A stretch of DNA of 64,000 nt from Amoebophrya sp. A120. Taxonomy: Eukaryota; Protista; Dinoflagellata. The notes below the pieces were generated by a model, which was not told the origin of the DNA, did not search any database, and saw only the letters and a list, made by a program, of their open reading frames with translations. Below are positions 1,359 through 53,241 of the stretch, in pieces. The stretch is taken from contig CAJINV010000013.1 in the NCBI GenBank assembly GCA_905178155.1, positions 2,422,281 to 2,486,280 of the forward strand, in the 5' to 3' direction. Position 1 is the first letter of the stretch. Each line of letters begins with the position of its first letter. The position numbers and the translations under genes are program-made.

Positions 1359-3654
1359 ATGTCCTCGTCGCACAGTAAATTCGTGCCAATTTTTCGTTCG
1401 GAAAAGTCGGGATCTTCATTCTCCGCGGTGTCGCGGGCGGTTATGCTTGCGACGCCACTTCTCTGCTGGCTCTTTTCCGCTTCGAACCTGACTACGTCAA
1501 CCACCGCCCTGCGCATCCCGACCTCCGGTGACGCGCAGGACGATGAGGGCGAGGAGCCCTGTGCTTGCGACCTCTGCTACGGGGAGCACCTGACGAGCGG
1601 GTTGGAGGCCACGCGCCCGGGCATCGCGTTTCAGTGCGCGACAAAGGTCCCCGGGAAGTGCGCGCAAGCAGGCTTGTCGGAAACCTGGGTGATCAATATC
1701 AACCGCGTAGTGGAGAAAAACCGGTGGTGCGAGTCCACTTGCAAACCGATCCGGCCCGTGTCCATGAAAGATTTGAACGTAGACGGCAGCCAGGGCGCGG
1801 CTATCCCGTCGTGAAAATAAAACGTTTCTACTTATTAAGTACGATAACGCGGTTGCACGTCGACGGGATGCGCAAGTGAAAATCGTGTGACATGGAAGAT
1901 GCGCAGTCTCATGCGACGAGGCGTTGTGCAGTGCTTGCGTAGGCGTTTTCGAATAATTCAGATTTTCCAGCATGCTTTGGTACTCAGGACGAACTACATT
2001 GTCGGTTTGTCATGCACCCGCAGAGTCTGACACAGACACTGATCTGCTTTTCTCCTGTGCCGTGACAGCATCAAGCACCCGGAGCCTTCAGAACGGCTGG
2101 AGCTGTCTAGCAGAATCGATTCGCATGCTCTTAGAGAATGATCGACTGAACTGTCGGGACGTTTTATTTCCTCAGCATAGGGATAGAAGCGGGAGGACCA
2201 AATGGGGCTGGGTTGAAATGTGAGCCTTTGACTGAGAAGGAAAAGCAGAAAGCGCGGGACGCGAATCTAGGAAACGGTGCGGCGTGGACCATGTACATCA
2301 CTCCAATGACGGACTCGCTCACGTCCGACATTTTCATGGCTGCGGCCCCGCCAAAAGGAGTACTAGATGACCTGCGACAGGTGTTTCAACAGAGCAGTGC
2401 GCTGGACCCGCTCGCGCCACCGGTAATACTTCAGTTTCCTACAGGAACAGTACGTGTCTCGCGTAGAACCACTGCGGAAGTAGTCGCTGTAGCTTTTTCT
2501 ATCTTCATCATGTTGATTGTTTTTGTCGCTTTCTTGGAACGCAAACGATGCGACGTGGGTACCATTTGTTTTACCAAAATTGCTACAACAGCCCCCGCCG
2601 CCGGTGGTCAACCTTTGCAAATGCGATTGCTCGGACCCCATTGTTATCCTGTGCAAATATAATGTCTGCGTCTGGAAGAGTGCACTTTGTGATGCGATGA
2701 AGGCTCGATCACATTCACATCAAAGAAATATGTGTTGCATGAACGCCAAAAGTTGCCGCCTTCTGGATAGGCAAAAAAATGCGAATTTCTCATGCGAGAT
2801 AGGCAACAAGATTCAAGAAATTGAAGGTCTCGAAAAATCTGTGATGCTTCTGTGTGCAGTCAAAGCCGCCATGCGTTCGGTCCGCGAGATGCATGAGAAA
2901 TTTTGCAGCCTTCCAGACCCAGACGAGGTTGCAATGCATGAGCTTTGCCGAACCACCCCCGCCGCCGCCACCGGAGGAAGTACCCGGCGACCCCGTCCCG
3001 CCGTCTTACCTGATGCCATCCGGCGCCCCGCCCCCGGCACCCCCGATTTTACCGCCGCCGCCCCCGCCCGCGCCGCCAGCTGCGCCGCAGCCACTCAGTT
3101 TGGCCGCACCGCTACCCGGGATTCCTCCGATGCCGGTAAACGTGGAAGCGGATTCCCTCTACGGGTACGGCAGCGGTCCGGGAGGGTTCGGTATCCAAGA
3201 AAAGCTGATTGTTCTTGCGATTCTGTCATGCGCAATTAATGCTGGTCATGCGCTGCAGGGCCCATTGATTCAACCGCGTTCACTGCGCGTGGCAGATTAT
3301 TTATTATTGCTCTCATGCGGCCACACAGATTTGTAATGCTGTTCCTCCACCATGATCAAAAGAATTACACTGACACGACACTTTTTTCCTTGGATATTCG
3401 GCAGCACTGCGGGATCCGGTCTTGGCCTCGGCTCCCCCGCGCCTGGGGTCGTCGCGCCTTTTTTTTTCCAAACGACGAACCGCGAAGCAAACGGTAATGG
3501 GCTACAACTGCACGTGCAGCGCCAAGGAAACCAGGAAGAGCAGTGCCCTCCCTGCTTGTGCGAGAAGCAGAAACTAGATGCCCGGATTCAGAGAGACCTG
3601 ATTACAGCGACGTCTCAAGCAATGTCGCAACACCAGCAGAGCAACGGACGGTAG
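1359..3654 (+). CDS. Putative secreted Cys-rich / proline-rich protein, 5 exons
   Basis: Hydrophobic leader (MLATPLLCWLFSA), Cys cluster (CACDLC...CESTCKP), poly-Pro tract. Exons ~1359-1801, 2191-2422, 2592-2644, 2946-3191, 3402-3654 join in frame after removing three introners and a GT-AG intron at 2423-2591. Confidence 0.6.
1802..2185. mobile_element. Introner (non-canonical TIR intron)
   Basis: TATCCC..GAAAATAAAACGT / ACGTTTTATTTCC..GGGATA inverted ends; flanks GCGGC/GAAGC; removal +5 nt gives GAAGGPNG in frame. Confidence 0.7.
2645..2940. mobile_element. Introner, family A (ATGTCTGGGTCTGGAAGA-type TIR)
   Basis: GTCTGCGTCTGGAAG / CTTCCAGACCCAGAC inverted; flanks diverged; removal restores frame. 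Confidence 0.7.
3192..3396. mobile_element. Introner, family B (TATCCAAGAAAA TIR)
   Basis: TATCCAAG / CTTGGATA, perfect TSD TTCGG; internal similarity to 7454-7694. Confidence 0.9.
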
Positions 3655-4313
3655 AAATTTGCAGCAGGAGCGTCGTGTAGAATTCTTCTCTTGTTTTTTC
3701 CGATTTGACATGTCGAGCTTCTTCAACTTCTATCTTTGGTTTCATGTATCTCGACGGTGCTGTGACCATCAGGATCGGAAGAAGCCCAAGGGTTCTTGAG
3801 TTGTCCTGAAGTGGTTTGCCAGGGATTTTGGGTTAAAATTGCAATGGTGTTCCTCCTCCTTCAGTCGGTTACAAGAACACGTTGCGCGGTGTTGCAACAC
3901 CCAGGTTTTTTCGTGTAAAAAGAAGTAGTGGTCCCAGACGCGGAAGGGTCGATATGTCATTGTATGCTCAAGCCGCACGGAGATTGAAAGAAGCTTCTTC
4001 TTGTCGTGGAGGAAAAAGCCACGGGTTGACGTGATTTCTAGTACTTGTGAAAGATGACCTCCTGGTTGCAAACTCCATGTATCATTGCACTACAACGTCG
4101 TGCGAGAGCATGCTGTGCCGCGAGTAACATTCGAGTTGCAAGTTATTTCACCTGGAAGTCTAAGTCTACAAACACAAAGTCAAAGTCTTTTAGAGGAAAT
4201 TAGCTTCTTACTTGAAGACTCTAGTACGAGTACGCTTTTGTGCCGAGCGAAGTTTTCTAAAAACAGACGCAGCACCTCACCTGCCAACCCCTTTTACCGG
4301 AGGAGAAAAAACC

Positions 4314-5467
4314 ATGCCCGACACAGCATCCTCAGGAATGAACAAGTCTGCGGTAGCGCTGCAAGGCGCAACTGCGACGAGCTCTAGCTCGTCGAGTTCT
4401 GCGCTGAAAAAATTTGAGCGGCCGGGGCTGATGGTTGACGAGATAGAGGAGATGAAGGAAGCTTTTGACCTGTTCGACCTAGACGGTTCGGGGCGGGTGG
4501 CGCCGAAGGATCTGTGTCAGGCAATCCAGAATCTTGGGTAACTACGGATATGGAACCCAAAACTACAAAACGCTGCATCGATTAGAGCGCAGTGTAATAA
4601 GATGCGTAACGAGTATTTTGTTCATCGATATCGTTCGCCTCTTGCTCATCTAGTTTTTGCAAAAGAAATTCGCTGCATTTATGATATTCTCCAACTCCAC
4701 TAGGCTCGAGCACAAGAATACGGTGGTGCAACAGATATTGAAAGACTTGGAGAAGTGCTCGCATACCATCGAGTTTCAAGACTTTCTCGACCTCTTTTCC
4801 GCAAAAATGGGCGAACGGGACACCCGAGAGGACATTGCAAAGGTTTCTCAACTTGTCTTATTGTCACGTTCTAACTAACAAGTAACAGGACCACAGAATA
4901 AATCAAAGCCTTGGAGGACGGTTATGGATTGTCTGTGTCGCGTAGAGGTTGTGACTTGGCAGATCGAAGCACAAATGGTTGAAGCATACTCTTCGATCGA
5001 GCCGAGAGAACACCAAAGAACTTCCCGACTCTACCTGCCTTTTTCATCAGGTTTTCCGTCTCTTTGACGACGATCATACGGGATATCTGACGGTCAAGAA
5101 CCTGGCCCGCGTCGCGAAGGAGCTCGGGGAAGCGCTCACGGAGAACGAACTGAATGAAATGGTTTTGCGGGCGGACAGTAGTCACTCAGGAAAAGTTATC
5201 GTGTGAGATCAAAGCTGTATCAGTAGCCAAAACCGGTTGCATAAGTATCGATATCTATTCAGAACGACGAGGAATTTTCTCAGCAAAAATGCAAGCCAAG
5301 AGATCTTCATGCCTGCGACGAGTCAGCAGCAATGGAAAACAAGTACACGTGTATATAAGAAAAGCTGGCTCTGGTGGCAAAAGTTGCGACTGATACACCC
5401 TTCTCCCACGATAATGCTGAGCCTGGACGATTTCTACTCGCTGATGGTGCATCGAAGTTTTCCATGA
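4314..5467 (+). CDS. Centrin (EF-hand protein), 4 exons
   Basis: [59 protein letters not shown]...ADSSHSGKVSLDDF. GT-AG introns 4538-4703 and 4843-5050; non-canonical intron ~5197-5418. Confidence 0.92.
5197..5413. mobile_element. Introner interrupting centrin EF-hand 4
   Basis: TATCGTG.GAGA..TGTATCAGT / ACTGATACA..TCTCCCACGATA; removal +5 nt rebuilds the loop DSSHSGKVSLDDF. Confidence 0.8.
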
Positions 5468-6764: not shown

Positions 6765-9700
6765 ATGGAACCGGATCTCAATGGGGGAGACCACGTGAGC
6801 AGCCCTAACCAGGACTATTCTCAAGAACATTCTGCCTACGACGATGAGGAGGTGTTTTCCCTTGACGAGAGCATCTCGGTTCTGGAAAACTACTTTCTCG
6901 GGGGCCAGCGGGTACGCAGTACCTCGACCTTCTCTGGCTCAAATCCGGATGAATTCGAATTTGACGGCGGAGATGAGGGGCTGCACCAGGACGTCGAGCA
7001 GCGTGAAGACGTAGCTGCAGTCCGCGTGCGCCAGCGGTCCGCGAGCAGCGACCAAGAATTCTTCGACGCGACGCGTACGGTCGAACACGTCATCGAGGTA
7101 GGTTCGTCGTCCGCTGCCTCGTTATACGAGCTTGATGGAGATGGTGGAGCAGCGGGACAACGACAACCAACAGGGAGCAGCAGCTCTCCGTCCTATAATT
7201 TCGACTGGCTCGCGGACGAGAGCGAGACGTCGCAGGAGCGGGCCCGCCGGATCCAGCTAGCTAGCCGAGTAGATCAAGACGACCCACAAGCGCGACAAGG
7301 GCAAGAGCCGCAGTTTCCAGGCCAGAGGAGAGGACCGCTCCCGAGGACACGGTCCCCGAATTTTTCCATTGCTACGTGGTGGACCAATTTTCTACTGCGC
7401 GCCAGCCGCTTCCCCGTTGGAACAGGACCGAACACTAGCCGTAGTTTCAATCGTATCCAAGAAAGAAGGATTGTTTTTACGTCGTGGAGGACCCTCGTTT
7501 GTGATGAGGAGTTGTACAACGCAATGAGGCTAAACGTGCGTCATGCTGGTCATGCTTTTGACGGGCCATCCACGTACTATCTGCGCATCATAACACCCTG
7601 CCAGACAGATTTGTGATGATCGTGCTCCAAAAAAATATTAATGTACTCGTACCAGACTTTTTTTTTACAACACGATGAGCTTTTTTCTTGGATAAATCGA
7701 AACGAGTCTTCGGAATTTGAATACGACGGCACAAGTTCCGTGGGGGCCCTCAGCCCGGCGCAGCAAACGGGTTTGGGTACGAACGCCTCTTCCCCGCAAG
7801 ACGTCTGGCGGCTCTGGTTCGGGACCGTGAGAAGGACAGAAAACATTCCTCGAGATGAGCAGGAGGGCGGCGCCCAGATTTTTCTAGCAGGAGATGCTGG
7901 ACGAGGTACAACTACCCCGTCACCACTGTCTCTGCTGTCTCGTCCAGGGTTCTTTTTCCTCGGTAGCAGTAACGACAAGACAAAGAGCAGCGACACATCA
8001 ATGTCCTTCGCGAACAAGCGACACGCGCTGAACTTTTCCCGGACCCGGCAGCCGGAAAAGTTGCAGGCAGAGATTGCAAGGGAGCGGGAATTCGACCAGA
8101 ATCCCTTCGAAAGTGCACCTTCTTTTTCTGCTGCTGGAAGTGCGGAAACTACTGAAGCTGCTGCTAACAAGGATCGCTCAGCAGGAGCGCAGCTATCAGG
8201 CAGTAACAAGATCCAGAAGCTTCTCTTGTCCGGCGCCTGGCAGGACGACCAAAAGTATGGCTACTCGCTTACGGCGCGGCTCTGGGTGAATTTTGTCAGA
8301 AGCGCAAAAAATGCGACACATATTAACGGAGGGCTTGAAGATAGTAGCAGTAGGAGTGCAGAAGTAGAAGAAGTTTGTGCTAGTACCGCTAATGGAGCTG
8401 GTACAGATGCCGGTAGACGAGCTACTGCGACTTCTTTTTCGAGTACGACTGGCGTGCCGGAAAATGAAAATCAAAATGAAGATGACAAATCGTCCTCTCC
8501 TGCCCGCGCAAAGACAACTTCGTGCCACAGATACCAGGTCGCCGGGTCGTTTGAGTGGCAGCTGCTCCGGGTGCCGCAAAATGTTGCGCATGTTTCGCCG
8601 ACCGCCGCTAGCGGCTCTGCGGCAAGTGGTGCCAATTTTTATCCGTCTTCCCCTGCTGCGGTGCCTCGTGGATCCACCTCGTCACCTTCTTCCCCCGAGT
8701 CTACGCGCGCCCGCCACCTCCGGCTCCATATCGGGGCCACTGCGGTAGAAAGGGTTCAAGGCGAGTTGCTGTTTCTCCGGCGGAGCACAGCTGAAAGTGA
8801 AACTGACAGAGACCACAACGACGAGGTCGTTCTGACGCTGCAGGGTTTCGAGATCCTGGACCCCTTGATTGCCACGGAAAGTCGTGAAAAGATACCACTT
8901 GAAGAAAACGAAATTGGTGCTGCAGAATTTCTACCTCAGTCCGAGTCCAATTCAAGGTTGAAGCTGCATGATAAACCGGCTGTAATCGAGCCGTGCCACT
9001 ACCACTTTCGCTTGCTTCCGAAACACTTTCCCGGGACGTTCTACGGCGTCAGTAGTGCGATAGCCGACGAGGAAAGTTTGTTCACAGAGGGATCGGTTGA
9101 GCTGCGGAATAAATCTCGTCAAACAGAAGTCGCACCAGCACCTCGCCTTTCCCGCTGGCCCGGCCGATTGGAGGCCAGAATCTTAGATTTCTCTCCAGTG
9201 GATGCGGAAGGTAGTGATTTTCCAGTTTCACCAAGTACAACTGGGGAGAACAAGAGAAGCGGCCCGCCCCACAGAACAAAGATGAACAACGACGAGGATG
9301 GACTCCTGCGAAACGACACCAATCACCCGTCGACATCACTTTACGGGCATGGTACTTTTCAACCGGCTGGAAAGGAAGTAGATCTCCGGCCAGCAGAGGT
9401 GGAACATAATATCGTGGCAGAACAAGAAGCTGAACCTGAAGCCCTTCCCTTCGATGAAAATGATGACGTTGTTGCACAACTGAACATGAGTACCGTGAAA
9501 TCCACGGGTTCCTCCGCCTCGAATCTGCTCATGCCAATGCTGCAACCGACTTTGTTCAAAACTTACTCGGGCGATGTTGTGGCCACCGGCGCGACGGCCT
9601 CGAAAATGGAGGAGAACAAGAACGGTGAAAATTCTTATCCAACATCAGCAGCGGTACAAACAATTCTTGTACCTCCAACCACGCCCAGCAGCTGTAACAG

Positions 9701-10373: not shown

Positions 10374-11111
10374 CGTTTGAAGACAGAAAAGCAGATAGAA
10401 GAAAATGAAAAGCTGCTTCGCAATTATGGTCGCTGCGTTCTTTTCTAGAGGACTGTATGATCTTAGACGTCGATGAAGAGTTTCTGTTTCCTTGGTAGTT
10501 CTGGTTGTTAGTATTTCGCTGAAGCGGAGCAGGATAATAAATGAGAAGATTGTCACGACTGGTGTAAGATAAATGCTTCTGGACTTCTGAGTTTCGCCAT
10601 ATGATCGAACTAACAATATGAATAAGAGTAAACACAGATTTCCATGACCGGCCTTATCGAGAAAGAAAGGCTTATTTCGCCGGGTTGCTGTTGCTGGCCC
10701 GCCGCCGCCAGCCGCTGTTTCCATGGTCCCGACGACCATTTGCGGGCGTCACCAGTAATACCGAGGGAAGTGCACAACTACCATGAGACTCATTGCATTT
10801 GCAGTTCAAGGAAGTTATGAGTCAAAAGTGAATGAGAGCAGGATTTTGGAGTGATGCTATTCGTGCAGGTACTACGACTGGGCCCTGGTATTCTGCGGCC
10901 TATTTCAGATCCAGTACAACATTTACGAACTGGAAATGAAACTCAAGATCAGCTGCTGAAGCGACGCTCACCTACCATCTGGATGAGAAAGACGACAGTT
11001 CTGGTCAATGCGAATTCCACAACATCAAAAAAAAAATGATCTTCCGTCATGACAATACAACTTCTCTACCAAGCAGACGATCCTGCTCAACAGAATCGAA
11101 AACTCGATAAG

Positions 11112-13650
11112 ATGCCGTCGTCTAGTATTTCCGGCGCAAAAAATGCAGCCGCACCGCAGGGTGATTCACCCGCAACACCCCTCCCCCCGCTCGCCGCGTT
11201 CGCGACCACCCACTGCGACTACCGAGCGGCCTACATTCCGCTGTTTCTCCAAAACCTCGGAAACGAATGGCACCCGGAGACGAACCCGGACGGCAAGGTT
11301 GCGCTGTGCGTCGCGGAGAACAAACTGATGGAGGCCAATTTGCAAGACCGGATTGCGGAAGTGTCGCTCGGGAAGATCATGACGAAGCTGCAGAAAGATG
11401 CGGAGAAAAGGCAACGCAAGAACTTTTATCTCTGCGGTTTTGGCGGATGCTCTTCGTCCTCCAAAGAAACTTCTGCTTCTGACACCGTTTTGAAAACGAA
11501 AACTGGCGACTCAACCACGGACGATGCCGTTTTGTACCACATGCCGAGCTCCATGCTGCATTACCACAATTTTTCCGGATCGGAGGCCATTCGGGCGGCG
11601 TTTGCGACTGTGCTTGAAAAGTACGTTTTCAACACCGCCTTGGAATTGATCTCAACGCTACCGACAAGTATGAAAGTCGATCCCGACTGCCTTTCCATCA
11701 CGAACGGCTGTACTAGTTTGATCACCAGCTTGGCCCGAGTAATTTGTGAGCCCATCGAGGGACGAGACCAGGAGCCAGAAACGAAACCACCGAGGACCCA
11801 GGAATCCTCCACCGAAATTGACGATGTGCATCTTCTTGTTTCGAAGAAACGACGTCGAGATGCGGTGATGTACTTCACCCCCCGCTACCCAGGTTTCGCC
11901 ACGGACATTACCGGTTTCGGGCAGGTCGCAAGGGTTGGGGTTCCGCTGGCGTTCAAGAAGAAAAAAGCAATGGACAAGGAAGATATTAGTACAACAAACA
12001 ACATGGATAGTAGAACAAGCGACGATTGTTCTACTTCTCTACAAATAGAGTGCAGTCTTCCGTCCAACGAAACGCTGGACCAGTACTTTGAGGACGATTT
12101 CCCAATCGACAAGCAGCACAACGTATCCTGTGCAACAGTATCGTCCTCGTAGTATATTGCCATTGCAGTCATGATGCGACACAAATCTATCTCTCTACCT
12201 CATCTAGCATGACAAAGGGCGTTTTTTTTTTGAGAAAATTTGTAATGCTATCTGTGCTAGTGCTAGTTGTAGTCCTAGTGTAGTGCGATACAATTCTGCT
12301 GCAATGCATACAGCTGCAACTTGAAGGCCTTGCTTCTGTGCAGCCCGGACAACCCCACGGGGACGGTGTGGAAGCGCGAGGAGCTGGCAAGGATTGTGGC
12401 ATGGTGTCGGGCAAAACAAATCTATATCCAGCAAGAAACGCCCATCCCCATCCAGTTTCTGCATGGGAAGCGCTGGACTTGTTTGATGCATGCTTTGCAT
12501 GATAAGTTGGATGGGGATGCTGAGACTTTTTCTGTGGATAGTCTATCTGCTGTCCGACGAAATTTACGGCGCCTCGGTTTTCGAGGAAGTCGGCGAGCAG
12601 AGCGGCGGGGATGAGCGCAACAAGAACCGCGAAACCAAGCACCTCAGCTTGTGTAACGTGGCAGACTGCACGTTCTGGGGGCTCTCGAAGGACTTTGCGA
12701 GCAGCGGCTCCAGACTCGCCTGCGCGTACTTTCCGAAGCTGCACCAGGGTCGTTCGAAGCTGGGAGAGATGTTCCGAGAAGTGAACATGGTGAATTCTGT
12801 AGCGAAGTGAAAAAAATCACTCTGCTCCTCATATTCAAACATGGCGGATCTGCATACACAATCATACAGAATTTCTGTCTTGCAGGAAGGACAAGGACGA
12901 ACTGCAGCCAGATTGCTCTCAGTCCGTGCAGAGGCGGCGCCGTTAGGGGCTAGCGGTTTAGGATGGCAAGTTTGTTCCGTTTTCGATTTGGGGGGTCCCG
13001 CCGGGTGATTTTTCCTCACAATATTCCGTCGGGTGCATCACCGAGCACGTTTTCGCCGAGATCTTGGGGGATACGAGTTTTATGACGTCGCACCTGGGGA
13101 ACGTCCGGCAGTGGCTGAAAAAGCACTCGGATCTGGTGGTGCAAAAGTTGGAAAGTTTGAAGATCCCGTACTGCAAGCCCTCGGCGTGCGTCTTTCTCTG
13201 GTGCGACTTCTCCGAATTCGGCATCCCAGCATTGGCGTTGTTTCAGCTGCTGATGGACAATACCAAATGCAAACGAATATCATGTTGGGACTGGAATGAA
13301 AGTATTGCAGATGATCATGTTGTTCTTCCTCATGCTCATTTTGCATGATTCGCGACGTCTGTCGTGTTGCACTAGCAAGAGCATCACATCGAACTCGAAG
13401 TTAGTTCTTTCACGAATAAGTACCTCCTGCTGCTCCCAGACATGTCGATTTGCAATGCATAGACGAGTACGGTATTATGTTCACGCCTGGAAACGAATTT
13501 TACGACAAGAATGTTCCGCAGCAGGAAGAGGCGCGGGTCTCCGGTTGCTGGATGCGAATTTGTTATGTTGCCGCTGAAACAAGGGCACTGCAGCACGCGC
13601 TTGGAAAATTGGAGAAGTTTGTGTTGGATCAGCGCAGTAGACAGTCCTGA
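11112..13650 (+). CDS. PLP-dependent class I/II aminotransferase (ACC-synthase-like), 5 exons
   Basis: WHPETNPDGKVALCVAENKL, LLLCSPDNPTG, LLSDEIYG, WGLSKDFASSGSR (PLP Lys), PSACVFLWCDF, IMFTPG, WMRICY; four introners interrupt it. Alternative start 11049. Confidence 0.85.
12124..12310. mobile_element. Introner
   Basis: TATCCTGTGCA / TGCAATGCATA; flanks CAACG/CAGCT; frame restored before LKALLLCSPDNP. Confidence 0.7.
12425..12540. mobile_element. Introner (shortest here, 116 nt)
   Basis: TATCCA..CATCCCCATCCA / TGGATGGGGATG..TGGATA; flanks ATCTA/GTCTA; gives KQIYLLSDEIY. Confidence 0.85.
12800..13023. mobile_element. Introner, family C-like
   Basis: GTGAAAAAAATCAC / GTGATTTTTCCTCAC; flanks TTCTG/TTCCG; gives VNSVGCITEH. 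Confidence 0.75.
13261..13461. mobile_element. Introner, family A-like
   Basis: TACCAAATGCAAA / TTTGCAATGCATA; flanks GACAA/GACGA; gives LMD(E/K)YGIMFTPG. Confidence 0.8.
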
Positions 13651-20400: not shown

Positions 20401-21543
20401 ACGGCAGAAGCTTCCGCCATATTATGGAAGCGATTTGTCACGCTGTTGGGCCTAAAGGGGAGCCGTTTTTCATGCTGAACAACTAGACCCATACGCCCCT
20501 ACCTAGCCTGGGGATCTGGCTGCAGTGGCTCTCTGCAATACAGCGCTGATTTGTGTACACAAGTCGAGCATTAGAAGTTCCGTTTTGCTATGGGGAGGGG
20601 GGATTTTTCCTTTCGATAGAACGACTACGGGCGGGTCCAGTTTCACAGCGAGGAAAAAATCGTCGCGGAGACCTTCCTATCAAACGCGAATATGTCATCT
20701 GGGTCCCGAAGAGTGCGAGGTTTGTCATGCTAGTCTGGCATAACTCTGCACTCTGTATTGCGTGGCCGCGAAGGGCTCCTCTTGACTGTCATGCAAAAAG
20801 GGAGTCTCTCATGCGGAATACGCAACTGAGAACCTCCACGGAAAAACTTTTCATGCTTGGCAGCGCATAGTTGCAGTGTACTCATTATTCCCTCCCTTGG
20901 ATCACAAGTTTCCAGGCCCAGACTCATATTTGCAATGCATACTTCCTCCGGACAAGGTCCTTAAAATCCGTGAACGTGCCGGATCCGATATCAAAAGGAA
21001 AAATCCCCCCGCCCCATACCGAAAACGAAATTTGTGATGCTGGATTTGAGTACACAAATCAGATTTGTCTTGCTGAAGAGGATTGCAGGCCCACATCAAG
21101 CCTGAGTAGAGAGGTTTTGGCCTAGCCGCTTAGCATGTATGAGAAACGTCTGCGCTGTAGGCCAAACAGCATCACAAACCGCCTGCATAATGCGGCGGAG
21201 CCTGTGGAGTTGCCTTCTTGCAGGACAGAGATCATTTGTGGTCGCAAATCAGCATTGCAAATTTTCTGCGGCGTACCTTTTCGATATGGGAAGGGGGAAT
21301 TTTTCCTCACAATATCCGACACTGAAACTCCTCCAGGACGTGGCCCGCGGGGTCGAGATCAAGTCGTCGCGGTCCAAGGCGTACCACCTGCACATCCTGC
21401 GGTTCGACGGGGACCCGGTCCGGCTGTCTGTGCCGACGATCACCACCTTTCACCTCTTGACCCAGGCATTCAAAATTCTGTGCGAGACGCCGAAGGAACA
21501 ACTAAGCTACTTTGCGGTCGTGCTGGGGCTCAAAAGTACGTGA
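14463..21543 (+). CDS. Large coiled-coil protein with possible C-terminal PH-like domain, ~11 exons
   Basis: Heptad-rich E/K/L/Q segments; GT-AG introns 15378-15533, 18575-18790, 18888-19018, 19157-19287; six introners; spliced C-terminus GIAVMQLQKKQNLWQPRIVSVSNDYGRVQF...FLRTRSLKSVNV...RLSVPTITTFHLLTQAF resembles a PH fold (inference). Confidence 0.65.
16765..16994. mobile_element. Introner, family A-like
   Basis: CATCGCAAAT..TCTGG / CCAGA..ATTTGCGGTGGATA; flanks GGAGG/CGTGG; gives DLEERRHN. Confidence 0.7.
17489..17744. mobile_element. Introner, family A
   Basis: TATCAACTGCA..ATGTCTGGGTCT / AGACCCAGACAT..TGCAGTGCATA; flanks GGCCA/CGCCA; gives KLASLFKE. Confidence 0.85.
18019..18414. mobile_element. 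Introner
   Basis: TATCCAGCGCAAAA / TTTTGCGCTGCATA; flanks TCGAG/CGGAG; gives DSVEDSMK. Confidence 0.85.
20297..20618. mobile_element. Introner, family C (TATC..GAAAAATCCCCCC TIR)
   Basis: Perfect TSD GAACG. Confidence 0.9.
20678..20941. mobile_element. Introner, family A-like
   Basis: Perfect TSD CTTCC; no GT-AG at any sliding register. Confidence 0.9.
20989..21314. mobile_element. Introner, family C, opposite orientation to 20297-20618
   Basis: Perfect TSD TCCGA; interior resembles the reverse complement of the 20297 copy. Confidence 0.9.
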
Positions 21544-26928: not shown

Positions 26929-27208
26929 TAGGCATTGGAAATATGTCTGTGTCGGGAAGAGTGCAACTTGTGAGGCTGGCTTAGAGTTCTACTAAAGCAA
27001 TCTGTATTGCATGAGCAGCAAGAGGAGTACAGGCGTTGCTATGCGAAGAGGGCACTTGTCATGCAGGATAGGCATCAAGAATCTCAATCTCGCAAAAAAT
27101 GTGTGATGCTAGGGCACACCTCACGGAGGCAGAGCACATCATGGGTCATGCAAAATATGCATGAAAAACGTTGCACCTATGTAGACCCAGACATCTTTGC
27201 ATTTGATG
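26929..27208. mobile_element. Introner, family A
   Basis: ATATGTCTGTGTCGGGAAGA / GACCCAGACATC; interior colinear with 41919-42183. Confidence 0.75.
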
Positions 27209-31629: not shown

Positions 31630-32084
31630 CCTCGGTTCTCAGGCGCAGCGCGCCGGCCTTGAGAAGCGTGTCTGGAGAGATCCAGGGGGTGCGCCCCTGC
31701 GCCGCGTTGCGTACGTTTGTAATTTGCACAAGAAAAAGTGGCGCAGCCGAAGAAGCAAGCTCTGACTTCTGTTGCCTTTTTGGCGCCTGTTCTGACCCCA
31801 GGCACGGCGGCACGCTGCCAGAAAGGAGCGAGACTGTTGAGTCTTCAAAAAGTACAAAAGAAGCGCGACAGACACGAAGCAGGGTGGCACTGCCTGCGAA
31901 ATAGGCAAAGCTCACGGCTCAGGTTTGTTAGTCTTTGCGGCGCCGTGCCGTCGTGTTTCGTGGTCATATACGTTGACCGATAAAAGGCGCGCGCGCTGCC
32001 TTCGGTCACACGTGAATCGCGGGCGGAATCCTCTCGGCAGATTTTCAATTTATTACGCGCTTGAATGGCGTTCCTTCCTGTTTC

Positions 32085-39805: not shown

Positions 39806-42464
39806 ATGGCTCCGCAGCCTTTCCTCGACCTGCCCACCGTTCTGCTCGGCGACGGGCAGTTGCGGGATGTGGGTAATTTTCACGAAAAGTCGTTCTACCG
39901 AATCTGGACGAAGGACCACAAACTGCAGCACCTGTTGCAGCAAACCAAGATGGCTTACTCGCAGCTGATGGAGCTGCTGCCCACCGACGGGGTTTCGCTC
40001 GGCAAGCAGCACCTGGTGGCCTCGCCCTCGGAGACCGCGGGTCAGAAGGTACGCATGTTCGAGACTGGGATGCTGCTGAATCTTTTGTCCACGGCCGAAG
40101 AAATTTGGAAACAGGACACCAACACCTGCAACATGCTGCAGGAGCGCGCGCAGGTGCAGCTGAACTTGATTCTGGAGGAGCAGAACCTGTACACCTTGAA
40201 GCAGGAAGAACGAAAATTGTTTCAACTGGTCGCGAACCTGATGGGGCGGCACGTGTGGCACCCGGAGGAGTACTGGGACATGGCCTGCTACCCGGACGTG
40301 AAGTCGGTGGAGCGGTACTGGATGGGCGCGCGAATGCTGTTTGACACGACCGTGAACCCCTACGCGGACCTTTCCTACGCCCGCGGCGCGGAGAAAAATC
40401 TGGACGTGACGGACAGCAACTTCCACGCGGCCTGGGAGCGCATCAACCAGGGCAGCGCGAACCAGCGGGACAACGTGTTGGGGAACGTGAGCGAGCACCG
40501 CACGGAGGCGGAGGACGCCCAGCAACTCATGTCCGAGGCGCTGTCGCCCTTCCAGGCCCGCCCCAGCACGCACTACTCGCACAGCGGGAACAAGTTCGGG
40601 CGGAAGCTGAACCCGATGCTGGACTTGTATGACCGGCACTACGCCATGCACCTGCGCCAGCACAAGATCGAGGGCCGGAGAACGGACGGCACCTCCGACG
40701 ACCACCAGCAGCACCCGCAGGGCGCCGCGGGCCTCGGGGACGACCGGGCCATGGGTGACGAGAAGTTGCGGTCAAAATTCGGCCACAAGCAGTGTCCCCC
40801 GGACGCACAGGACTTAGAATTCTTCCGCATTTGCCGCCGGGAAACAGAGCGGACGACCGCGCAGCTGCTGTCCGAAGCGGATTTGCTGAAAAAAGAGATC
40901 TAGGGATTGGAAAAGTCTATGTATCGTCTATTTACGATTTACTGGTTGTAGTATTTTTGCATCACAAACTTTCAATTTCATAAACAAAAAACAAATTATG
41001 AAATTATTTCGGTAATCGTGCTGTGAAGATGCAGGAGCAGGTAAGACTCAGATGGTAGATTTGTGTTTGTCATGCAACAATATTGCGATTACGATTAGTA
41101 CGAGTAACCGATACATAACTTTTCCAATGCATAAGCTCACGACGCGGGAGGTGAAGTTCACGACGAGACGAGCGCAATTGGTGCACAAAATCTACGACAC
41201 AAACGCGAAGTTTCAGCTGTTATCCGCCGCGGAGGCGGACCAACTGAAGTACGAACTGTCCCTGTTGCGGAAGAGACGGAAACTTTTGAATCTGATGAAC
41301 GCGTGTCTGGACGAGATTCGGGAGGGGCGGATCGACTTCTTTGCCCGCATCGAGCTCGTCGACAAAGAGGCCGAGCTGCACATCGCGGTGGACGAGCAAC
41401 TGCTCGCGAAGCACGGAAAGCACAAACCCGCGGAGCTCGCGGCCCGGGTGGCGTGTCACCAGGCGCTGTCCAACGCCTTCAAATTTGACCCGGAGGACGA
41501 TCCGAACTACGCCGACAACGCGGTGAAAAAAGCCATGCAGTGGGACTACAACGCCGCGGACTTCTATGAAAGTGTCAGAATCGAAATTGACAAAATCGAA
41601 AAATTTGTGATGCATAAAATCGATACCAGTTGGAGCCTCAGTTTGTAAGTGGCGCATGACAAATTTCGGGAGCAACCAAATCCAGTCTGTCATGCTGTTT
41701 GGGCAAAGAAGACTGCTCCTGTCGTGCTACTCTGGCAGCACATTGCATATACCCAAACACGCTTACAATCAGTCGCATTTGCCTGCTCCCCAATACAGGC
41801 CTCCAGTGCCCTACATTTTATGCATGAGAAATTCTTTCAACTTTGTCGATTTCGATCCTCACACATCCATAACTTCCTGTTCGACGAGACGGCGCGGAAA
41901 TTGAAGGACCTGCAGGGGTATCAAATGCAAAACTGTCTGGGTCTGGAAGAATGCAACTTGTGATGCTGCGCTTGGATTCCAAAAACATCTGTATTGCATG
42001 AGTACCAAAGGGAATGCAATTTTTGCTACGCTGAGGAGGCATTTGTCATGCGGAATAGGCATCAAGAAGCCCTCAAAAAATCTGTATTGCTAGGGTATGC
42101 ATCACCGACATCGTGGCTCGTCATGCAAAACGTGCATGACAAGTTTCAGAATCTTCCAGACCCAGACATTTTTACAGTTGATAAGGGGGTCAACGTGCTG
42201 GAGTTGGCCGGGACGCCGGTGCCGGAAAAGCAGGACATGATACACGCGGAGCTGGAGCTGCTCAACCTCGCGATGATAGAACTAGAAAGGGACACGCCGG
42301 ACGGGTTGCTGGATGACCGACTGAAGTTTTTGGTGGACATTATCCGAACCAAGATAAAACGCTTGAGGATCGTCGCCATCCAGTCGGCCTATAATCTCTT
42401 CGAGGTGGAAAACGCAAAAAAGAGCTTGCGAGCCGCCTTCCGACAGAATAACATTGTCGCGTGA
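39806..42464 (+). CDS. Hypothetical helical protein, >=4 exons
   Basis: Strong GC3 codon bias; junctions KKEITTREVKF, ADFLFDETARK and LQGVNVLE after removing three introners. Confidence 0.7.
40901..41133. mobile_element. Introner
   Basis: ATTGGAAAAGT.TATGTATCG / CGATACATAACTTTTCCAAT; flanks AGATC/AGCTC. Confidence 0.85.
41565..41871. mobile_element. Introner
   Basis: ATCGAAATTGACAAA / TTTGTCGATTTCGAT; perfect TSD ACTTC. Confidence 0.9.
41919..42183. mobile_element. Introner, family A
   Basis: TATCAAATGCAAAACTGTCTGGGTCTGGAAGA / TCTTCCAGACCCAGACATTTTTACAGTTGATA; perfect TSD AGGGG. Confidence 0.92.
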
Positions 42465-43335: not shown

Positions 43336-46245
43336 ATGGCAACTCCTGCCTCCTCTTCTTCGCTGGCGGGAACATCAATCATGTTTTTCCCCAGCGGCCA
43401 CGCAATGGCGCCACCGCAGCCAACAAGCGGCCAGCACGGATCATTTTCCTGTGGCAGTTCTGGTTCTTCGGGGAGCTGCCCGGCGGAGATGTTGACGTAT
43501 GAGTCGGTACATGCTCAAATTTCCGTGTTCGAGGAAATGGTGGAAAACCGAAGGCTCGCGAAGCTCATCGAAATGGACGACCACGTGGGCGTCTCCTTCC
43601 ACCTGGCCACCGGGATCTGCCTCGCGTCGACCATCTTTTTCTTTGCGCAGGTAGCCTTCGTACCCGATCGATGGAGGAATTCCATGGTGATCGCAGGGCT
43701 GGTTACAGGTATAATTGAGATTGAAGAGCAACTCGCTTCATTTTTTTTTCCTGGAAGATCAAGATTGTCTTTTGCGGTAGTCTACTAACCAGCCAGCAGG
43801 ACAGAGAAAGCTTGATTAGACACCACAATGAACAAATAGCGGTGCTTTATATAAATGACAAAATGATGTTGAAAATGATAATGAAGGTGTGGCCTGGCAT
43901 CACTACCAACACATGCAAGAGATCTGGGAAGACACGTCAAAAGCCCCGACCATTTATCGCTACATGGATTGGTTTGTGACCGTGCCCCTCCAAGTGATCG
44001 AGTTTTACCTGATCCTTGTCGCCGCGAACCCAGACGACAACATTTCCGTCCCCGCTTCCCTGTTCTACCGCCTCCTGATCGGCTCCATTTTTATGCTGGG
44101 CTTCGGGTACGCGGGCGAGGCCGAGTGGATGGACCGGTGGGGGGCCTTTGCCGCGGGCTGCTGCTGCTGGGCGTACATTATGTACGAGGTAAGTACGAGG
44201 AAACAAAGATCACTAAATTTCTTTTCATGAATCACTTCTGTGGGTGTGCTCTCGTCGTGCTGCGGCACCCTGTTGCATTAATGACTTGTTTTATATGCTT
44301 TGTACAAGCATTTCGAATTACTCTAAAACGAAATCGCAAACGAACAATATTAAAAGAATAACTTCACACAGCACATGAAACACAGATTTCCTTTGGCGAG
44401 GCCGCTCGCATTTCCGGGAAGATGGGGTTGACCGACCGCGATCTGTTCCTGCGCTTTGTTTCGGGCCGCACCAAGGAGGACCTCGAGGAAGAAAAGGAAA
44501 ACGAAAAAATCATCCAGCAAGCCAAGAACGTGAAAGCCGCTGAGATGATGAAGATGAGCAGCGACATTCACACACCCTCGCTGTTGACCACTTCGGACAA
44601 CATGCTGCAAGACAGCACTGCAGTGTCGATGGACGACAACTTCATGCAGGAGCACAAAAAAATCATGGAGCAGATGGATTTTTCCATCTCCTCCCCGTCC
44701 ACAAACAACAAAACCGCATCAAAGAAAGGAGCCCAGCAGGGTGGTTCTGGTTCTCTCTCCTCGCCCAAAATAAACAACGGTCCGCCGTCGGGGCAGAACC
44801 AGACCCTCGCGGGAGCACTGGTGACCAGCATGTCCTCCGCCTTGCGGGTGGACCAGGTGAATGCCGATTCCGTGGCGATGCAGGACTACAAGAAACCGGA
44901 GGCACAGCTGGCCTTTGAAATTCTGCGGGCGATCTTCATTTTCGGCTGGGCACTCTACCCCATTGGATATGCGGTGAAGGGGGACGGAACCAATATTACG
45001 CAGGGGGTGGAGAACACGTTGAATGGTATCTATGATAGGAACTTACTACAATAGTTCATCTGGGGTCTACATCTACTACCTTTTGTGCAAGTAGTGCAAT
45101 GAAAAACAATAAGTTTCCTTTGCATAGTTGTATCAAATGAAAATAGAAACAACTTTACAGCCGTCTACAACGTGGCCGACTTGATCAACAAAGTGGCCTT
45201 CGGTGGGGCAATCTATTACGCTGCCTGTTCGAACGTCGAGGCCGAGAAGGCCGAACTGTACGCGTTGCGCGAGTCGTTAGACCTGGAGATATCGCGAGAA
45301 AAAAGTGTTACAGTTACACATTTGTTGGAGCTCTTTCTGCATCACAAATTTTCTCTGTGTGGCAGAGAAAACTTGTAATGCGAAGATCATAAGGGAAAAC
45401 AGGAAGGAAATGAGGCTGCCAAGCATTTCCTGCATGAGAAAGGTTGTCTGTGTTGCCGGTCTTGCAACACAATCTGTAACTGTAACACTTTTTTCTTACG
45501 ATAGGAGATGACGCAAAAGCAGTGGCTAAAAAAGCAGGCGAACGGCGGCGAAATAGAAATGGCGGATTGGTACAAGGTATCAAGTGTAAAAATGTCTGGG
45601 TCCTCTGGAAGATTGCCAGACTTGTCATGCATATTTTGCATGGCCCCTGATGGCTGTAATGCATGGCCTAGCATCACATATTTCTAGAAGGCTTCCTGAT
45701 AAGTACCTATTCTGCATGAGAAATGCCCTCTCCGTGTAGACCAAACTGGGCTCCTCTTGCTGGTCATGCAATACAGATTTTTTTCGAATCCGAAGACAGC
45801 GTTGGGGCGACTTGCCGTGGTAGCGCTCGGCTTTTGTATGTTGAGGTCGCCGAAAGTGCTTCCTCGCCCACCCCCCGGGGAGGGGATCCTTGACCTGTGG
45901 CGCTGGGTGCGGGTGTCCACTACATGATGATGATGACAGCGTGACAAGTTGCAATCTTCCAGACCCAGACATTTTTTCAATCCATACACGGCGAAGTTGA
46001 TCAAGCAAGCACGGAAGGAACAAATGATCGAGCAGAAGAGAATGTGGTACAGTGCTGTAGTAGTGTTGATTTCATTTCTACGTCCTTCGTCCTCGTCGAG
46101 TTTTCTTTTTTCGTACTTTCCGATTATTGAGAAACACTAGTACAAGTACAACAAGCAAGTACAGCCCACCATCTTAATGTGACACCACACTACCACCAGG
46201 AAAGCCATGTTCGCAAGTGGTGACGAAGGTGCCGCAGCGAATTAG
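43336..46245 (+). CDS. Proteorhodopsin-type microbial rhodopsin with E-F loop insertion and C-terminal extension, 7 exons, ~537 aa
   Basis: Exons 43336-43708, 43887-44188, 44386-45025, 45161-45289, 45509-45577, 45992-46046, 46200-46245 (1614 nt). Motifs GVSF..LASTIFFF, GLVTGVAWHHY, RYMDWFVTVPLQVIEFYLIL, MLGFGYAGE, GWALYPIGY, YNVADLINKVAFG. Confidence 0.92.
45290..45503. mobile_element. Introner, family D (TATCRYRAGAAAAAAGTGTTACAGTTACA TIR)
   Basis: Perfect TSD GGAGA. Confidence 0.92.
45578..45986. mobile_element. Introner, family A, inverted relative to 41919 and with extra internal sequence
   Basis: TATCAAGTGTAAAAATGTCTGGGTC / GACCCAGACATTTTT..CATA; flanks CAAGG/CACGG. Confidence 0.85.
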
Positions 46246-51400: not shown

Positions 51401-53241
51401 CGAACTGCGAACCTTCTTCAGCCCCGCCGGAGGAAATTATCGCGATTATTGTCAAGTACGCGATTGCGGCCGAGAAAAACCACGAAAGGAAGGCTTCGGC
51501 CCTCGGTGAAGTAGTTCTTGGAAATGTAGTTCCACCGGAGCTGCAGCACGAGGGTAGCGCGGTCGGAGCTGCCGGCGCACCGAGCTGTGACCGCTCCGTG
51601 TGGAGTGACAAGTCGCCGATGGTATAAAGCATTACGGATGATCACGTGGATAGAAGTCGGGAGTTTTCTAGAAGCAGTTCGGTTTTGCTGTTCATTATTT
51701 GCGGGGTAGTGTATTGCATGACGTGAATATTAAGACCTACCTACGTACTCCAATGGCAAATCACCCTTTCAATTTATCGTTCCATCACATCATCTTCAGC
51801 CGCCGGCCGCACGCTACAACTCCTATCACGAGAAAAAAGTGTTACAGTTACACATTGTGTTGCAAGCCCAGCATGACAGACAACCACTGTCGTGCAAGAA
51901 ATGCTTCCGAGCTTCATTTCATACGTGTTTTCCCTTTATGGTCTGTGCATTGCAAGTTTATCTCCCTCTCATACAGAGAAAATTTGTGTTGCTGAAGTGA
52001 CAACAAATGTGTAACTGTAACACTTTTTTCTTGTGACAACTCCCTGTACAATACTACTAGTTCTTCGTATCCAAACAAGCACGGGAACAACAATCCCCTT
52101 TCCGAGTCGCAACAGAGCCAGAGCACGAACTGGCCTTCGTTTCGTGCGTCGGACGATTCGATCGGGTGTGGGGGCGGATGCACCAGCACTAGCGTCGAAC
52201 ACACGGATATCAAACAAAAAAAGTTCGTCACGATCACTTATGCGCATTTTTGCAATACAAAACTGTTTGTCATGCGTAAAAATGCATCACAGCCTAACTT
52301 CGTGAGGGATTTCCCTAGTGTTTCTGCAATCCATTGAAAATTTGTGATGCTAAGAAAATTTGTAATGCAAAGCCTGCAAGTTAGTGACTGTGACAAACTT
52401 TTTTCTCTTCATAACGGACAACGAAGGAATAATGTTGTCGTCTTCCACTTGTTCGCATCTGGATCACCTAGATGGCAGCGACAGGAAAAACGCGTCGGGA
52501 AAAATGGTCCAGCAGGAGCAGCAGGAGAATCTTGTCTCGACGACATCAGTGGTTCACGGTGAAACAAGTACCACCACCACCACCACCACCACCAGCACGA
52601 CCTCCCGACTTCGCCTGGACGCGCACGCTCTGCACGGCCACGATGTCACCATGGACCAGATTACGGAGGAAAACCAAATCGACTTGGACAACGTCAGCAC
52701 TACGCACAACAACTCCGAGCCCTGCTTCCGCACGACCAGCTTTTCCACGAACCTGAGCAAAGACACAACACTCCTTTCCCGGACGGGCAGCAGCACGGTG
52801 GTTTGCGATGCCGCGGCGTTTGGCGCGATGGTGCTAGCAACCTGTACCGATTTGCTCATTTTCCTCACGACCGGTGGAACGTCAAATTATAACGGCTCTA
52901 CTTCTACTTCCACTGCTTGTGCTGCTTCTGTCTCTCGTCGCGGCCTTGTGGTGATTCCGAAGCACTGCCTCTGTCCGACTTTCACGGAATTGCTTTTGGA
53001 GCAAAGTGATTGCAGCTCTTTCTCAAGTCTGAATGTTGGGTCAACGGCGAGCAAAAAGAAAGACAACCCGGCGCATCTTCATGATCAAGCAGGCCTGCTC
53101 GGCAGTTCTTTTGTCGGAATCAGAAAGACCAGCAGCGATCGGCCAGCTGACGAGATCTTCGACCGGAAAGACAAGATCCTGCAGATCGCCGGGAATTGCG
53201 AACACCTCTACGCTGAGGGACAGATTCTGTGCTGGGACTAG
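48415..53241 (+). CDS. MA3-domain (PDCD4-like) protein with probable long C-terminal extension
   Basis: MA3-like helices EKFKVDVTNVLVDYL, LKMDFPRFPELLGKILVRLV, AKKKIKAILSEY, EFIIDSG; GT-AG introns near 49816 and 50330. Linking 51622 to 53241 relies on a weak junction plus two clean introners, so the 3' part could be a separate gene; junction at ~49155-49373 unresolved. Confidence 0.55.
49155..49319. mobile_element. Introner-like TIR element
   Basis: TATAATTATGGCGCGA / TCGCGCATAATTATA; flanks do not match. Confidence 0.7.
51824..52038. mobile_element. Introner, family D, opposite orientation to 45290
   Basis: Perfect TSD ACTCC; ~30-bp TIR. Confidence 0.92.
52208..52413. mobile_element. Introner, family E (AAAAAAGTT(C/T)GTCAC..TCACT TIR)
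   Basis: Perfect TSD ACGGA; gives EHTDNEGIM. Confidence 0.9.
52570..52593. repeat. (ACC)n coding microsatellite (poly-Thr)
   Basis: Eight ACC units. Confidence 0.9.

What the first reader, a model, noticed from the sequence alone, without database searches (positions are those of the whole stretch)
1802..52413. About 30 non-canonical introns follow one rule: TA(T)...ATA TIR element plus a 5-nt duplication
Seen: at least five TIR families with different sequences share TA(T)/ATA termini and a 5-nt flank duplication. It is perfect at 3192, 7454, 20297, 20678, 20989, 23591, 23949, 41565, 41919, 45290, 51824 and 52208. Even where flanks have diverged, deleting the element plus exactly 5 nt usually restores conserved motifs (centrin EF-hand, aminotransferase SDEIY). 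Some, such as 20678 (CTTCC), offer no GT-AG in any register, while neighbouring introns in the same genes are GT-AG. Known: IR/DR-bearing introners are described in Amoebophrya. Inference: excision is directed by the TIR stem with a fixed 5-nt offset rather than by splice dinucleotides, so two splicing logics coexist in one pre-mRNA.
Basis: partly seen in the sequence, partly recalled or inferred. Interest (0 to 1): 0.75.

Follow-up and report, generated by a model that had tools for sequence, protein, structure and literature searches.

The report
Amoebophrya introners with fixed splice register
These are the already published transposon-derived introns of the marine parasite Amoebophrya A120; where probable-RNA contigs or annotated proteins allow a check, each is removed as its own length plus five bases, and the one cut that fits all checks lies one base before and four bases after the element, which likely points to a relaxed spliceosome rather than the usual GT-AG code.

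Summary
Observation confirmed. I list 30 TA...TA inverted-repeat elements, 12 with a perfect 5-nt duplication; none offers GT-AG in any element+5 register. Window genes match annotated Amoebophrya sp. A120 proteins, so these are the introner elements of Farhat et al. 2021 (PMC7789003), which already report TAT starts and 5-bp repeats but call the splice sites variable. A probable-RNA contig skips element+5 at 7454 and 16765 while a DNA-like run keeps the elements. Two annotated proteins are reproduced exactly only when the cut falls after the 4th base of the left duplication: intron = N + element + 4 nt, starting N-U-A. In 380 further copies from another assembly, 272 have perfect 5-nt duplications, and 175 of 192 frame-callable copies fit +5. 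Best reading: a modified spliceosome (about 50%). The scan noted the same elements and register on other pieces of this genome.

The parts
1802..2179 (+). TIR introner, flanks GCGGC/GGGAT; intron 1801-2183 at the fitted register
   Evidence: Annotated protein P0002 is explained by one join only, 1800->2184, 383 = 378+5; probable-RNA piece ends at 1800
2645..2940 (+). TIR introner, flanks ATTGT/AGCTT, ends ATG
   Evidence: P0002 reads DPIV and the A25 relative P0003 DPLVAEP, both fitting a cut after base 4 or 5; +5 gives the longest frame
3192..3396 (+). TIR introner, perfect TTCGG duplication
5197..5413 (+). TIR introner in centrin gene, flanks AAAGT/ATGCT
   Evidence: element+5 gives a 185-aa centrin ending in the loop DSSHSGKVSLDDF; EF-hand Pfam hit in exon 1
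7454..7694 (+). TIR introner in RING-finger gene, perfect AATCG
   Evidence: probable-RNA contig joint 7448->7695 skips 246 = 241+5; absent from the DNA-like run; 1120-aa frame
12124..12310 (+). TIR introner in aminotransferase gene, CAACG/CAGCT
   Evidence: P0001 reads HNCNL (cut after base 3 or 4); probable-RNA contig ends at 12122
12425..12540 (+). TIR introner in aminotransferase gene, ATCTA/GTCTA, just before LLSDEIY
   Evidence: P0001 reads KQIYLLSDEIY
12800..13023 (+). TIR introner starting TAG, TTCTG/TTCCG
13261..13461 (+). TIR introner starting TAC, GACAA/GACGA
   Evidence: P0001 reads LMDKYG (cut after base 4 or 5)
16765..16994 (+). TIR introner starting TAG, GGAGG/CGTGG; GT...TG at the fitted register
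   Evidence: probable-RNA contig joins 16762 to 16998 with contiguous record coordinates, skip 235 = 230+5, cut after base 3-5
17489..17744 (+). TIR introner, GGCCA/CGCCA
   Evidence: RNA piece ends at 17484; record length arithmetic fits +5
18019..18414 (+). TIR introner, TCGAG/CGGAG
   Evidence: record length arithmetic fits +5 together with 17489
20297..20618 (+). TIR introner, perfect GAACG; high-copy family
   Evidence: RNA piece ends at 20291; DNA-like run depth far above background here
20678..20941 (+). TIR introner, perfect CTTCC
20989..21314 (+). TIR introner, perfect TCCGA
23591..23751 (+). TIR introner, perfect TGGTG
   Evidence: open frame in partial model
23949..24207 (+). TIR introner, perfect GAAAA
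26130..26400 (+). probable TIR introner, GAGTG/CATTT, ends GTA
   Evidence: partial model only
26929..27208 (+). TIR introner starting TAG, ending ATG, flanks diverged (1/5)
   Evidence: partial model only
28434..28785 (+). TIR introner, flanks diverged (1/5)
   Evidence: partial model only
40901..41133 (+). TIR introner starting TAG, AGATC/AGCTC
   Evidence: +5 gives the longest frame
41565..41871 (+). TIR introner, perfect ACTTC
41919..42183 (+). TIR introner, perfect AGGGG
45290..45503 (+). TIR introner in rhodopsin-like gene, perfect GGAGA
45578..45986 (+). TIR introner in rhodopsin-like gene, CAAGG/CACGG
51824..52038 (+). TIR introner ending ACA, perfect ACTCC
52208..52413 (+). TIR introner, perfect ACGGA
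57380..57990 (+). probable long TIR introner, flanks diverged (1/5)
   Evidence: by inspection; partial model only
60126..60307 (+). TIR introner, AGCTG/AGCCC
62021..62143 (+). TIR introner, AGGTT/CGGAC
   Evidence: partial model only
11049..13650 (+). host aminotransferase gene with four introners (= GSA120T00019566001)
   Evidence: spliced model identical to P0001 only for the cut after base 4
14463..21537 (+). host coiled-coil gene carrying six introners and at least four GT-AG introns
   Evidence: 1540-codon open model; one probable-RNA contig carries both intron kinds

Best explanation
The elements are non-autonomous TA...TA DNA-transposon copies with 5-bp target duplications that sit in coding exons of Amoebophrya A120 and are missing from probable-RNA contigs as element+5 nt, at a cut one base before and four bases after the element wherever it can be placed, and they are likely excised by the host's own, relaxed spliceosome. 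Shown: anatomy, 5-nt duplication, presence in DNA, skip length at four elements, no GT-AG. Supported by two annotated proteins and contig end points: the 1+4 register. Inferred: the TIR supplies a donor N|U-A-U that keeps the U+2 and A+3 of the host's GTA donors but drops G+1; the acceptor is placed by distance (4 nt past the closing UA) with no AG; conserved terminal motifs (TAT-N7-AAA and its complement), probably read by a protein and helped by TIR pairing, bring the ends together. Because exactly one copy of the duplication is kept, any insertion in either orientation restores the original mRNA, which explains how the family could spread through coding sequence. The mobilising transposase was not found.
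For: RNA: joint 7448->7695 (246 = 241+5) in the probable-RNA run and not in the DNA-like run; 16762->16998 (235 = 230+5) at mismatched flanks; 661 nt of the same contig between 17484 and 19286 equals the genomic 1801 minus (256+5)+(396+5)+216+131+131. DNA: one contig covers 1501-17725 with 0 other letters and 0 gaps. Register: P0001 matches the model with 0 differences only for a cut after base 4 (1 difference for base 3 or 5, 2-3 for bases 0-2); P0002 residues 1-259 likewise (0 vs 1-4) and its first junction has one best join; contig ends at 1800 and 12122 agree. Frame: 175 of 192 frame-callable copies in other loci need +5 modulo 3, including 37 of 43 with mismatched flanks. No dinucleotide preference: GT-AG possible in 10 of 175 and 0 of 30; +1 base G in 55 of 175, near coding background 0.29. 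Published: all nine predominant A120 non-canonical splice motifs in Table S4 have T at +2, and all nine A25 ones start TT; nearly all spliceosomal proteins and U2, U4, U5, U6 are present in A120, U1 snRNA not detected. Host canonical donors have A at +3 in 12 of 15.
Against: No lariat, branch point or factor dependence was tested. TA termini are also what a transposase needs, so U+2/A+3 need not be splice signals; positions 1-2 show no 5'/3' asymmetry. The one asymmetry (A seven bases before the acceptor more fixed than its 5' partner) was p = 0.0015 (204/205 vs 192/205) but p = 0.054 on re-detection blind to positions 1-3 (230/233 vs 222/233). Loss of both G+1 and the terminal AG is hard to square with the standard second step (own knowledge). 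The register rests on two gene models that may derive from the same RNA data as the contigs; P0002 departs from my model after residue 259. A codon-likelihood test on 37 mismatched copies did not separate base 4 from base 5 (46.7 vs 47.6). The RNA run is labelled RNA only by guess and is contigs, not reads. Aligner preference for GT-like ends could shape Table S4.
Confidence: 0.5

Rival explanations
1. A second, non-spliceosomal route: a structure- or motif-guided endonuclease cuts at fixed distances from the base of the TIR stem (1-nt 5' and 4-nt 3' overhang) and a ligase joins the exons, as proposed for euglenid nonconventional introns. This is.
For: Complete freedom of +1 and of the last two bases; terminal three pairs are Watson-Crick in 191-199 of 205 elements; both folded examples pair the two TIRs at the base (z = -0.68 and -3.23); elements occur in both orientations (29 vs 38 for one end type); U1 snRNA not detected; euglenid precedent with circular, non-lariat products (review PMC11282704 section 6).
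Against: No sign of selection for RNA pairing: G-U 138 vs A-C 136, 117 vs 156; pairs 4, 5 and 7 are mismatched in 35-50% of elements; the 16765 element, spliced in the RNA contig, folds no better than shuffles. The register gives N-U-A in A120 and the published A25 motifs give U-U-(A), both donor-like.
Confidence: 0.33
2. Element+5 is removed, but the register is not fixed: the machinery aligns the exons through the duplicated bases and cuts anywhere within them.
For: Farhat et al. describe splice sites as variable relative to the hairpin, 1-5 nt away; only six junctions here constrain the register to within two or three positions; codon test inconclusive.
Against: Every informative junction admits base 4 and together they admit nothing else; copies with 2/5 matching flanks (1802, 2645) still fit +5, so pairing of the duplicates is not needed; with perfect duplications an aligner can slide over five positions, which would by itself give the published spread.
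Confidence: 0.12
3. The elements are removed from DNA (programmed excision like ciliate IES) or are skipped through nearby cryptic GT-AG sites.
For: TA-bounded ends recall ciliate IES (own knowledge); the RNA status of run X1 is a guess.
Against: The DNA-like run holds the elements in one continuous contig and has no 7448->7695 joint, while the other run also lacks GT-AG introns, as spliced RNA would; observed skips are element+5 with non-GT-AG ends.
Confidence: 0.04

Closest known systems
Introner elements / non-canonical introns of Amoebophrya sp. A120 (Farhat et al. 2021, PMC7789003; seen: abstract, sections 10 and 16 whole, passages of 11, 12, 17, 32, supplement parts 3-4 and legend passages)
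   Same: Same organism by protein match; IR starting TAT + 7 nt + AAA; direct repeats (3-5 nt in text, 5 bp in the Fig. S19 legend); mean length about 240 nt; genes with both intron types; no transposase inside.
   Different: The paper calls splice sites variable and border positions unknown (Fig. 3 legend) and gives DRs of 3-5 nt; here the duplication is uniformly 5 nt and the cut fits one register (1 nt before, 4 nt after). Figures themselves were not visible.
A120 introner families in Gozashti et al. 2025 (PMC12130899; seen: passages, and 21 of 58 A120 rows of supplementary file 8)
   Same: TIR DNA-type, superfamily unknown, many non-canonical boundaries.
   Different: Those rows give TSD calls of 2-5 nt and mixed 'carry/co-opt' classes, no common rule; 37 rows and files 13-14 were not seen.
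Nonconventional introns of euglenids (as summarised in review PMC11282704, section 6 read)
   Same: TIR-bounded, TSD-like repeats, non-GT-AG, coexisting with spliceosomal introns, stem at fixed distance from the junctions.
   Different: Stem at +4..6 / -8..-6 and a pyrimidine|purine junction consensus; circular products reported. Here the TIR starts at +2 and ends at -5, junction bases are free, products unknown.
Fritillaria borealis non-canonical introns (same review)
   Same: MITE-derived, TIR and TSD, removed by an adapted U2 spliceosome.
   Different: Preferred AG-AC/AG-AT ends and a TAC target; here no target or end preference was found.
IS3EU/GingerRoot DNA transposons (PMC10045372, passages seen)
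   Same: TA..TA termini.
   Different: TSD usually 6 bp, here 5 bp; no transposase found here, so this is only a lead for the mobiliser.

Membership tests
Amoebophrya A120 introner elements (Farhat 2021) | Host is Amoebophrya A120 | tested here: met
   P0001 and P0002 are named A120 proteins and match window exons at 100%
Amoebophrya A120 introner elements (Farhat 2021) | Terminal inverted repeat starting TAT, 7 variable bases, then AAA | tested here: met
   T-A-T at 1-3 and A at 11-13 in the end tables
Amoebophrya A120 introner elements (Farhat 2021) | 3-5 nt direct repeat overlapping the exon/intron borders | tested here: met
   5 nt; 12 of 30 perfect in the window, 272 of 380 in other loci
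Amoebophrya A120 introner elements (Farhat 2021) | Spliced from RNA with non-GT-AG ends | tested here: met
   two joints seen directly and two by length arithmetic in a probable-RNA contig; the other 26 not seen in RNA as joints
Amoebophrya A120 introner elements (Farhat 2021) | Repeated, in families | tested here: met
   one TIR motif gave 147+ stretches in a public assembly; full-length 70-83% matches
Spliceosomal (U2-type) intron | GT/GC-AG ends | tested here: not met
   0 of 30 and 10 of 175 in any register
Spliceosomal (U2-type) intron | Lariat with branch adenosine; dependence on U2/U5/U6 | not testable with these tools
   no read-level RNA of this strain was laid (raw-read runs gave 0 and 1 read)
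Euglenid-type nonconventional intron | Conserved RNA stem selected for pairing | tested here: inconclusive
   terminal three pairs kept, but no G-U excess; fold z -3.23 and -0.68
Euglenid-type nonconventional intron | Circular, non-lariat excision product | not testable with these tools
   needs RNA experiments
IS3EU/GingerRoot-derived MITE | TA..TA termini | tested here: met
IS3EU/GingerRoot-derived MITE | 6-bp TSD | tested here: not met
   identity 0.26 at 6 nt, 0.89 at 5 nt
IS3EU/GingerRoot-derived MITE | Cognate DDE transposase element with the same ends | tested here: inconclusive
   no coding long element among 9 long-pair rows in the loci and 2 in the window; only about 0.6 Mb was examined

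The most novel reading that the evidence does not exclude
Amoebophrya A120 runs a ruler-type splicing code in which the transposon's own ends are the whole signal: cut 1 nt before the opening UA and 4 nt after the closing UA, no G+1, no AG, either orientation, any target. If this is done by a machine other than the spliceosome (for example a domesticated transposon-end-binding protein with an RNA endonuclease and ligase), it is a second cis-splicing system that makes a whole transposon clan invisible at the mRNA level.
Probability: 0.25. Interest if true: 0.85.

Novelty: already known. Interest (0 to 1): 0.4.

Why it matters
The elements are published, but how more than half of this organism's introns are removed is an open question in the papers I read. 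A uniform 5-nt duplication and one cut position turn 'variable' splice sites into a single rule that can correct gene models (P0002 looks mis-joined after an introner) and can be tested directly with lariat sequencing, spliceosome inhibitors and minigenes. It also explains why exon insertions are tolerated at any target. I did not find the rule stated in the passages read from six literature searches, but figures and part of the supplements were not visible, and this scan has already noted it on other pieces of the genome.

Tried and rejected
No whole genome is held for the window. No listed holder is on record as RNA; X1-X4 are guesses. Raw-read RNA runs X8 and X9 gave 0 and 1 read: no test. 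In one search the DNA-like run filled the joints table (33 joints not shown), and a second laying of RNA contigs was not obtained, so most junctions were never seen as joints. Protein searches with exons at 26405-26704 and 59464-59763 found nothing, so the register at 26929 and 60126 stays open. Codon-likelihood and stop-codon tests of the register on 37 mismatched copies were inconclusive; one search had three training frames wrong and is superseded. End 2185 for the first element was rejected for 2179. A bias to G at +1 in the window (13 of 30) did not hold in 175 other copies (55 of 175). The 5'/3' asymmetry at TIR position 3 weakened on re-detection. No match to the TIR motif in viral contigs. 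No transposase domain in 16 ORFs from the large window repeats and nearby stretches or in the 25 window ORFs; long TA...TA pairs in the loci were chance pairs across host genes or non-coding by inspection. A U12-type reading of R-TATCC starts was set aside because the minor spliceosome is reported absent and +1 is any base. Candidate elements near 22992, 58437, 62451 and 63149 could not be given both ends and were left out of the 30. In whole-gene models of 22 elements, +5 gave the strictly longest frame for 17, tied for 3 (model cut at an exon end) and was 2-3 codons shorter than a shifted frame for 2 near a C-terminus.


Full report
1. Observation. From three scans and inspection I curated 30 elements of 116-611 nt between 1802 and 62143. 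Flank identity is 109/150 at 5 nt and 0.21-0.32 at every other length from 2 to 10; random re-pairing gave mean 39.7 and maximum 67 in 100,000 shuffles. This list was drawn up with the flanks in view. Ends found there by a weight matrix alone gave 380 elements, 272 with a perfect 5-nt duplication, and no hit in 256 kb of shuffled DNA. None of the 30 window elements offers GT-AG in any of the six element+5 registers; 10 of 175 oriented copies elsewhere do.

2. Organism and prior knowledge. An aminotransferase exon found one protein, named Amoebophrya sp. A120; the gene at 1317 found another A120 protein and an A25 relative. Window exons match them at 100%. Farhat et al. 2021 (PMC7789003) describe introner elements in this strain: inverted repeats starting TAT, seven variable bases, then AAA; direct repeats of 3-5 nt (5 bp in the Fig. 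S19 legend); more than 60% non-canonical introns; genes with both intron kinds; U1 snRNA not detected; mechanism open. Their Fig. [quoted passage not shown] I saw text, legends and tables, not the figures. The class is therefore known in this very genome.

3. Removal from RNA, presence in DNA. Four runs holding 0.59-0.64 of the words are guessed to be RNA, two holding 0.97 look like DNA. Laid on 1501-21500, the DNA-like run X5 gives one contig over 1501-17725 with no other letters or gaps. The probable-RNA run X1 joins 7448 to 7695 (246 = 241+5; X5 has no such joint) and 16762 to 16998 (235 = 230+5, flanks GGAGG/CGTGG, ends GT...TG at the fitted register). The same X1 contig also lacks the GT-AG intron 15378-15533, so both kinds are removed from one transcript contig. 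Between 17484 and 19286 it holds 661 nt; the genomic 1801 nt minus two elements each +5 and three GT-AG introns (216, 131, 131) is exactly 661. Thirty-three joints were not shown, the two raw-read runs gave 0 and 1 read, and no second laying was obtained, so 26 of the 30 elements were not seen as RNA joints.

4. Reading frames. In whole-gene models of eight genes holding 22 elements, +5 gave the strictly longest frame among +3 to +7 for 17, tied for 3 and was 2-3 codons shorter than a shifted frame for 2. In the other loci, frames called separately on each side required +5 modulo 3 in 175 of 192 copies that passed the threshold (351 of 380 had flanks long enough), including 37 of 43 with mismatched flanks.

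5. The register. Copies with unequal flanks place the cut. The spliced aminotransferase equals P0001 only when the cut follows the 4th base of the left duplication (0 differences; 1 for base 3 or 5; 2-3 for bases 0-2). Residues 1-259 of P0002 likewise (0 against 1-4), and its first junction has one best join, 1800->2184, 383 = 378+5. X1 pieces end at 1800, 12122 (base 3 or 4, inferred from where the contig branches), 16762 (base 3-5) and 17484 (base 1 or later). The A25 relative reads DPLVAEP where the fitted register gives DPIVAEP. So intron = 1 base + element + 4 bases, beginning N-U-A. All nine predominant A120 motifs in the published Table S4 have T at +2 and all nine A25 motifs begin TT, as this predicts, though aligner preference may contribute. 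Limits: two gene models, possibly built from the same RNA data as the contigs; P0002 leaves my model after residue 259; a codon test on 37 mismatched copies could not tell base 4 from base 5; two further protein searches were blank. I put the fixed 1+4 register at about 85%.

6. Mechanism. Target sites look like ordinary coding sequence: +1 is G in 55 of 175 (background 0.29) and the last two bases are AG in 19 of 175. Elements lie in both orientations. The first three terminal pairs are Watson-Crick in 191-199 of 205 copies, but pairs 4, 5 and 7 are mismatched in 35-50%, and G-U pairs do not outnumber A-C pairs (138 vs 136; 117 vs 156), which gives no sign of selection on an RNA stem. One element folds better than shuffles (z -3.23), the RNA-spliced 16765 element does not (z -0.68), though both structures pair the ends. 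The N-U-A start matches host canonical donors, 12 of 15 of which have A at +3. An A seven bases before the acceptor was more fixed than its 5' partner in one test (p = 0.0015) and only marginally in a blinder one (p = 0.054). I commit to a relaxed spliceosome that reads the TIR-supplied U+2/A+3 and sets the acceptor by distance (0.5), ahead of a structure-guided endonuclease-ligase route like that suggested for euglenids (0.33; review PMC11282704). Chemistry was not tested; TA ends are also what a transposase needs.

7. Mobiliser. TA..TA ends match IS3EU/GingerRoot, whose TSDs are usually 6 bp (PMC10045372); ours are 5 bp, so membership is not met. No coding long element was found in about 0.6 Mb. 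A shared internal motif, TGT(A/C/G)ATGC and its complement, occurs in 364 of 380 elements and points inward from both ends (window enrichment), a candidate binding site for the transposase or a splicing factor.

8. Novelty. Class: already known. The uniform 5-nt duplication and single register were not stated in what I read from six searches; the 21 of 58 A120 rows seen in the Gozashti 2025 dataset give TSDs of 2-5 nt and no common rule; unseen figures and files could bear on this. I reached the register before opening the scan's notes; these unchecked notes report the same elements and the same 1+4 register on many other pieces of this genome, which is not independent support. Interest 0.4: a known system, with a rule that makes its unknown mechanism testable.

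Noticed in passing
window 31122-33767: Intergenic 2646-nt element with 20-nt perfect terminal inverted repeats starting TTA, a perfect 5-nt duplication (CAAGA), internal duplications and TTTAGGG-like repeats near 31590-31625; no Pfam hit above cut-off in its 8 tested ORFs. TTA is the start reported for A25 introners.
   Followed up: partly
window 24431-25676: 1246-nt element with TTAAAGCTTGCC-type inverted repeats, flanks alike at 6 of 8 bases, and tandem internal repeats that carry the same TGTCATGC motif as the introners; it overlaps the 3' end of an open frame.
   Followed up: partly
window 43336-46244: Microbial rhodopsin-like gene (Pfam Bac_rhodopsin), 537 aa in my model, with a long insert splitting the domain and a coiled C-terminal tail; a rhodopsin in a non-photosynthetic parasite.
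   Followed up: no
loci L001-L144 (oriented subset): At the 1+4 register the introners favour phase 0 (85 of 175, chi-square p = 6e-5; 109 of 233 on re-detection) although target bases look unbiased.
   Followed up: partly
window 16765-16994 and 45578-45986: Left flanks GGAGG and CAAGG would have given GT...AG at insertion; the right copies now read TG and CG, and 16765 is still removed exactly in the RNA contig, so an AG acceptor may have been lost without effect.
   Followed up: partly
window 5218-5395: A second TATC...GATA inverted pair lies nested inside the centrin introner 5197-5413 (by inspection).
   Followed up: no
window 2941-3654: The annotated protein P0002 jumps from the 2645 introner to 3095 in another frame and stops at 273 aa, whereas element+5 gives a 424-aa protein that follows the A25 relative: a likely annotation error caused by an introner.
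   Followed up: yes
window 22992-23160, 58437, 62451, 63149, 63767: Further introner-like stretches rich in the shared motif whose two ends I could not fix.
   Followed up: partly
window 27373-27917: Intergenic repeat with an 80% match over 550 nt in locus L067.
   Followed up: no
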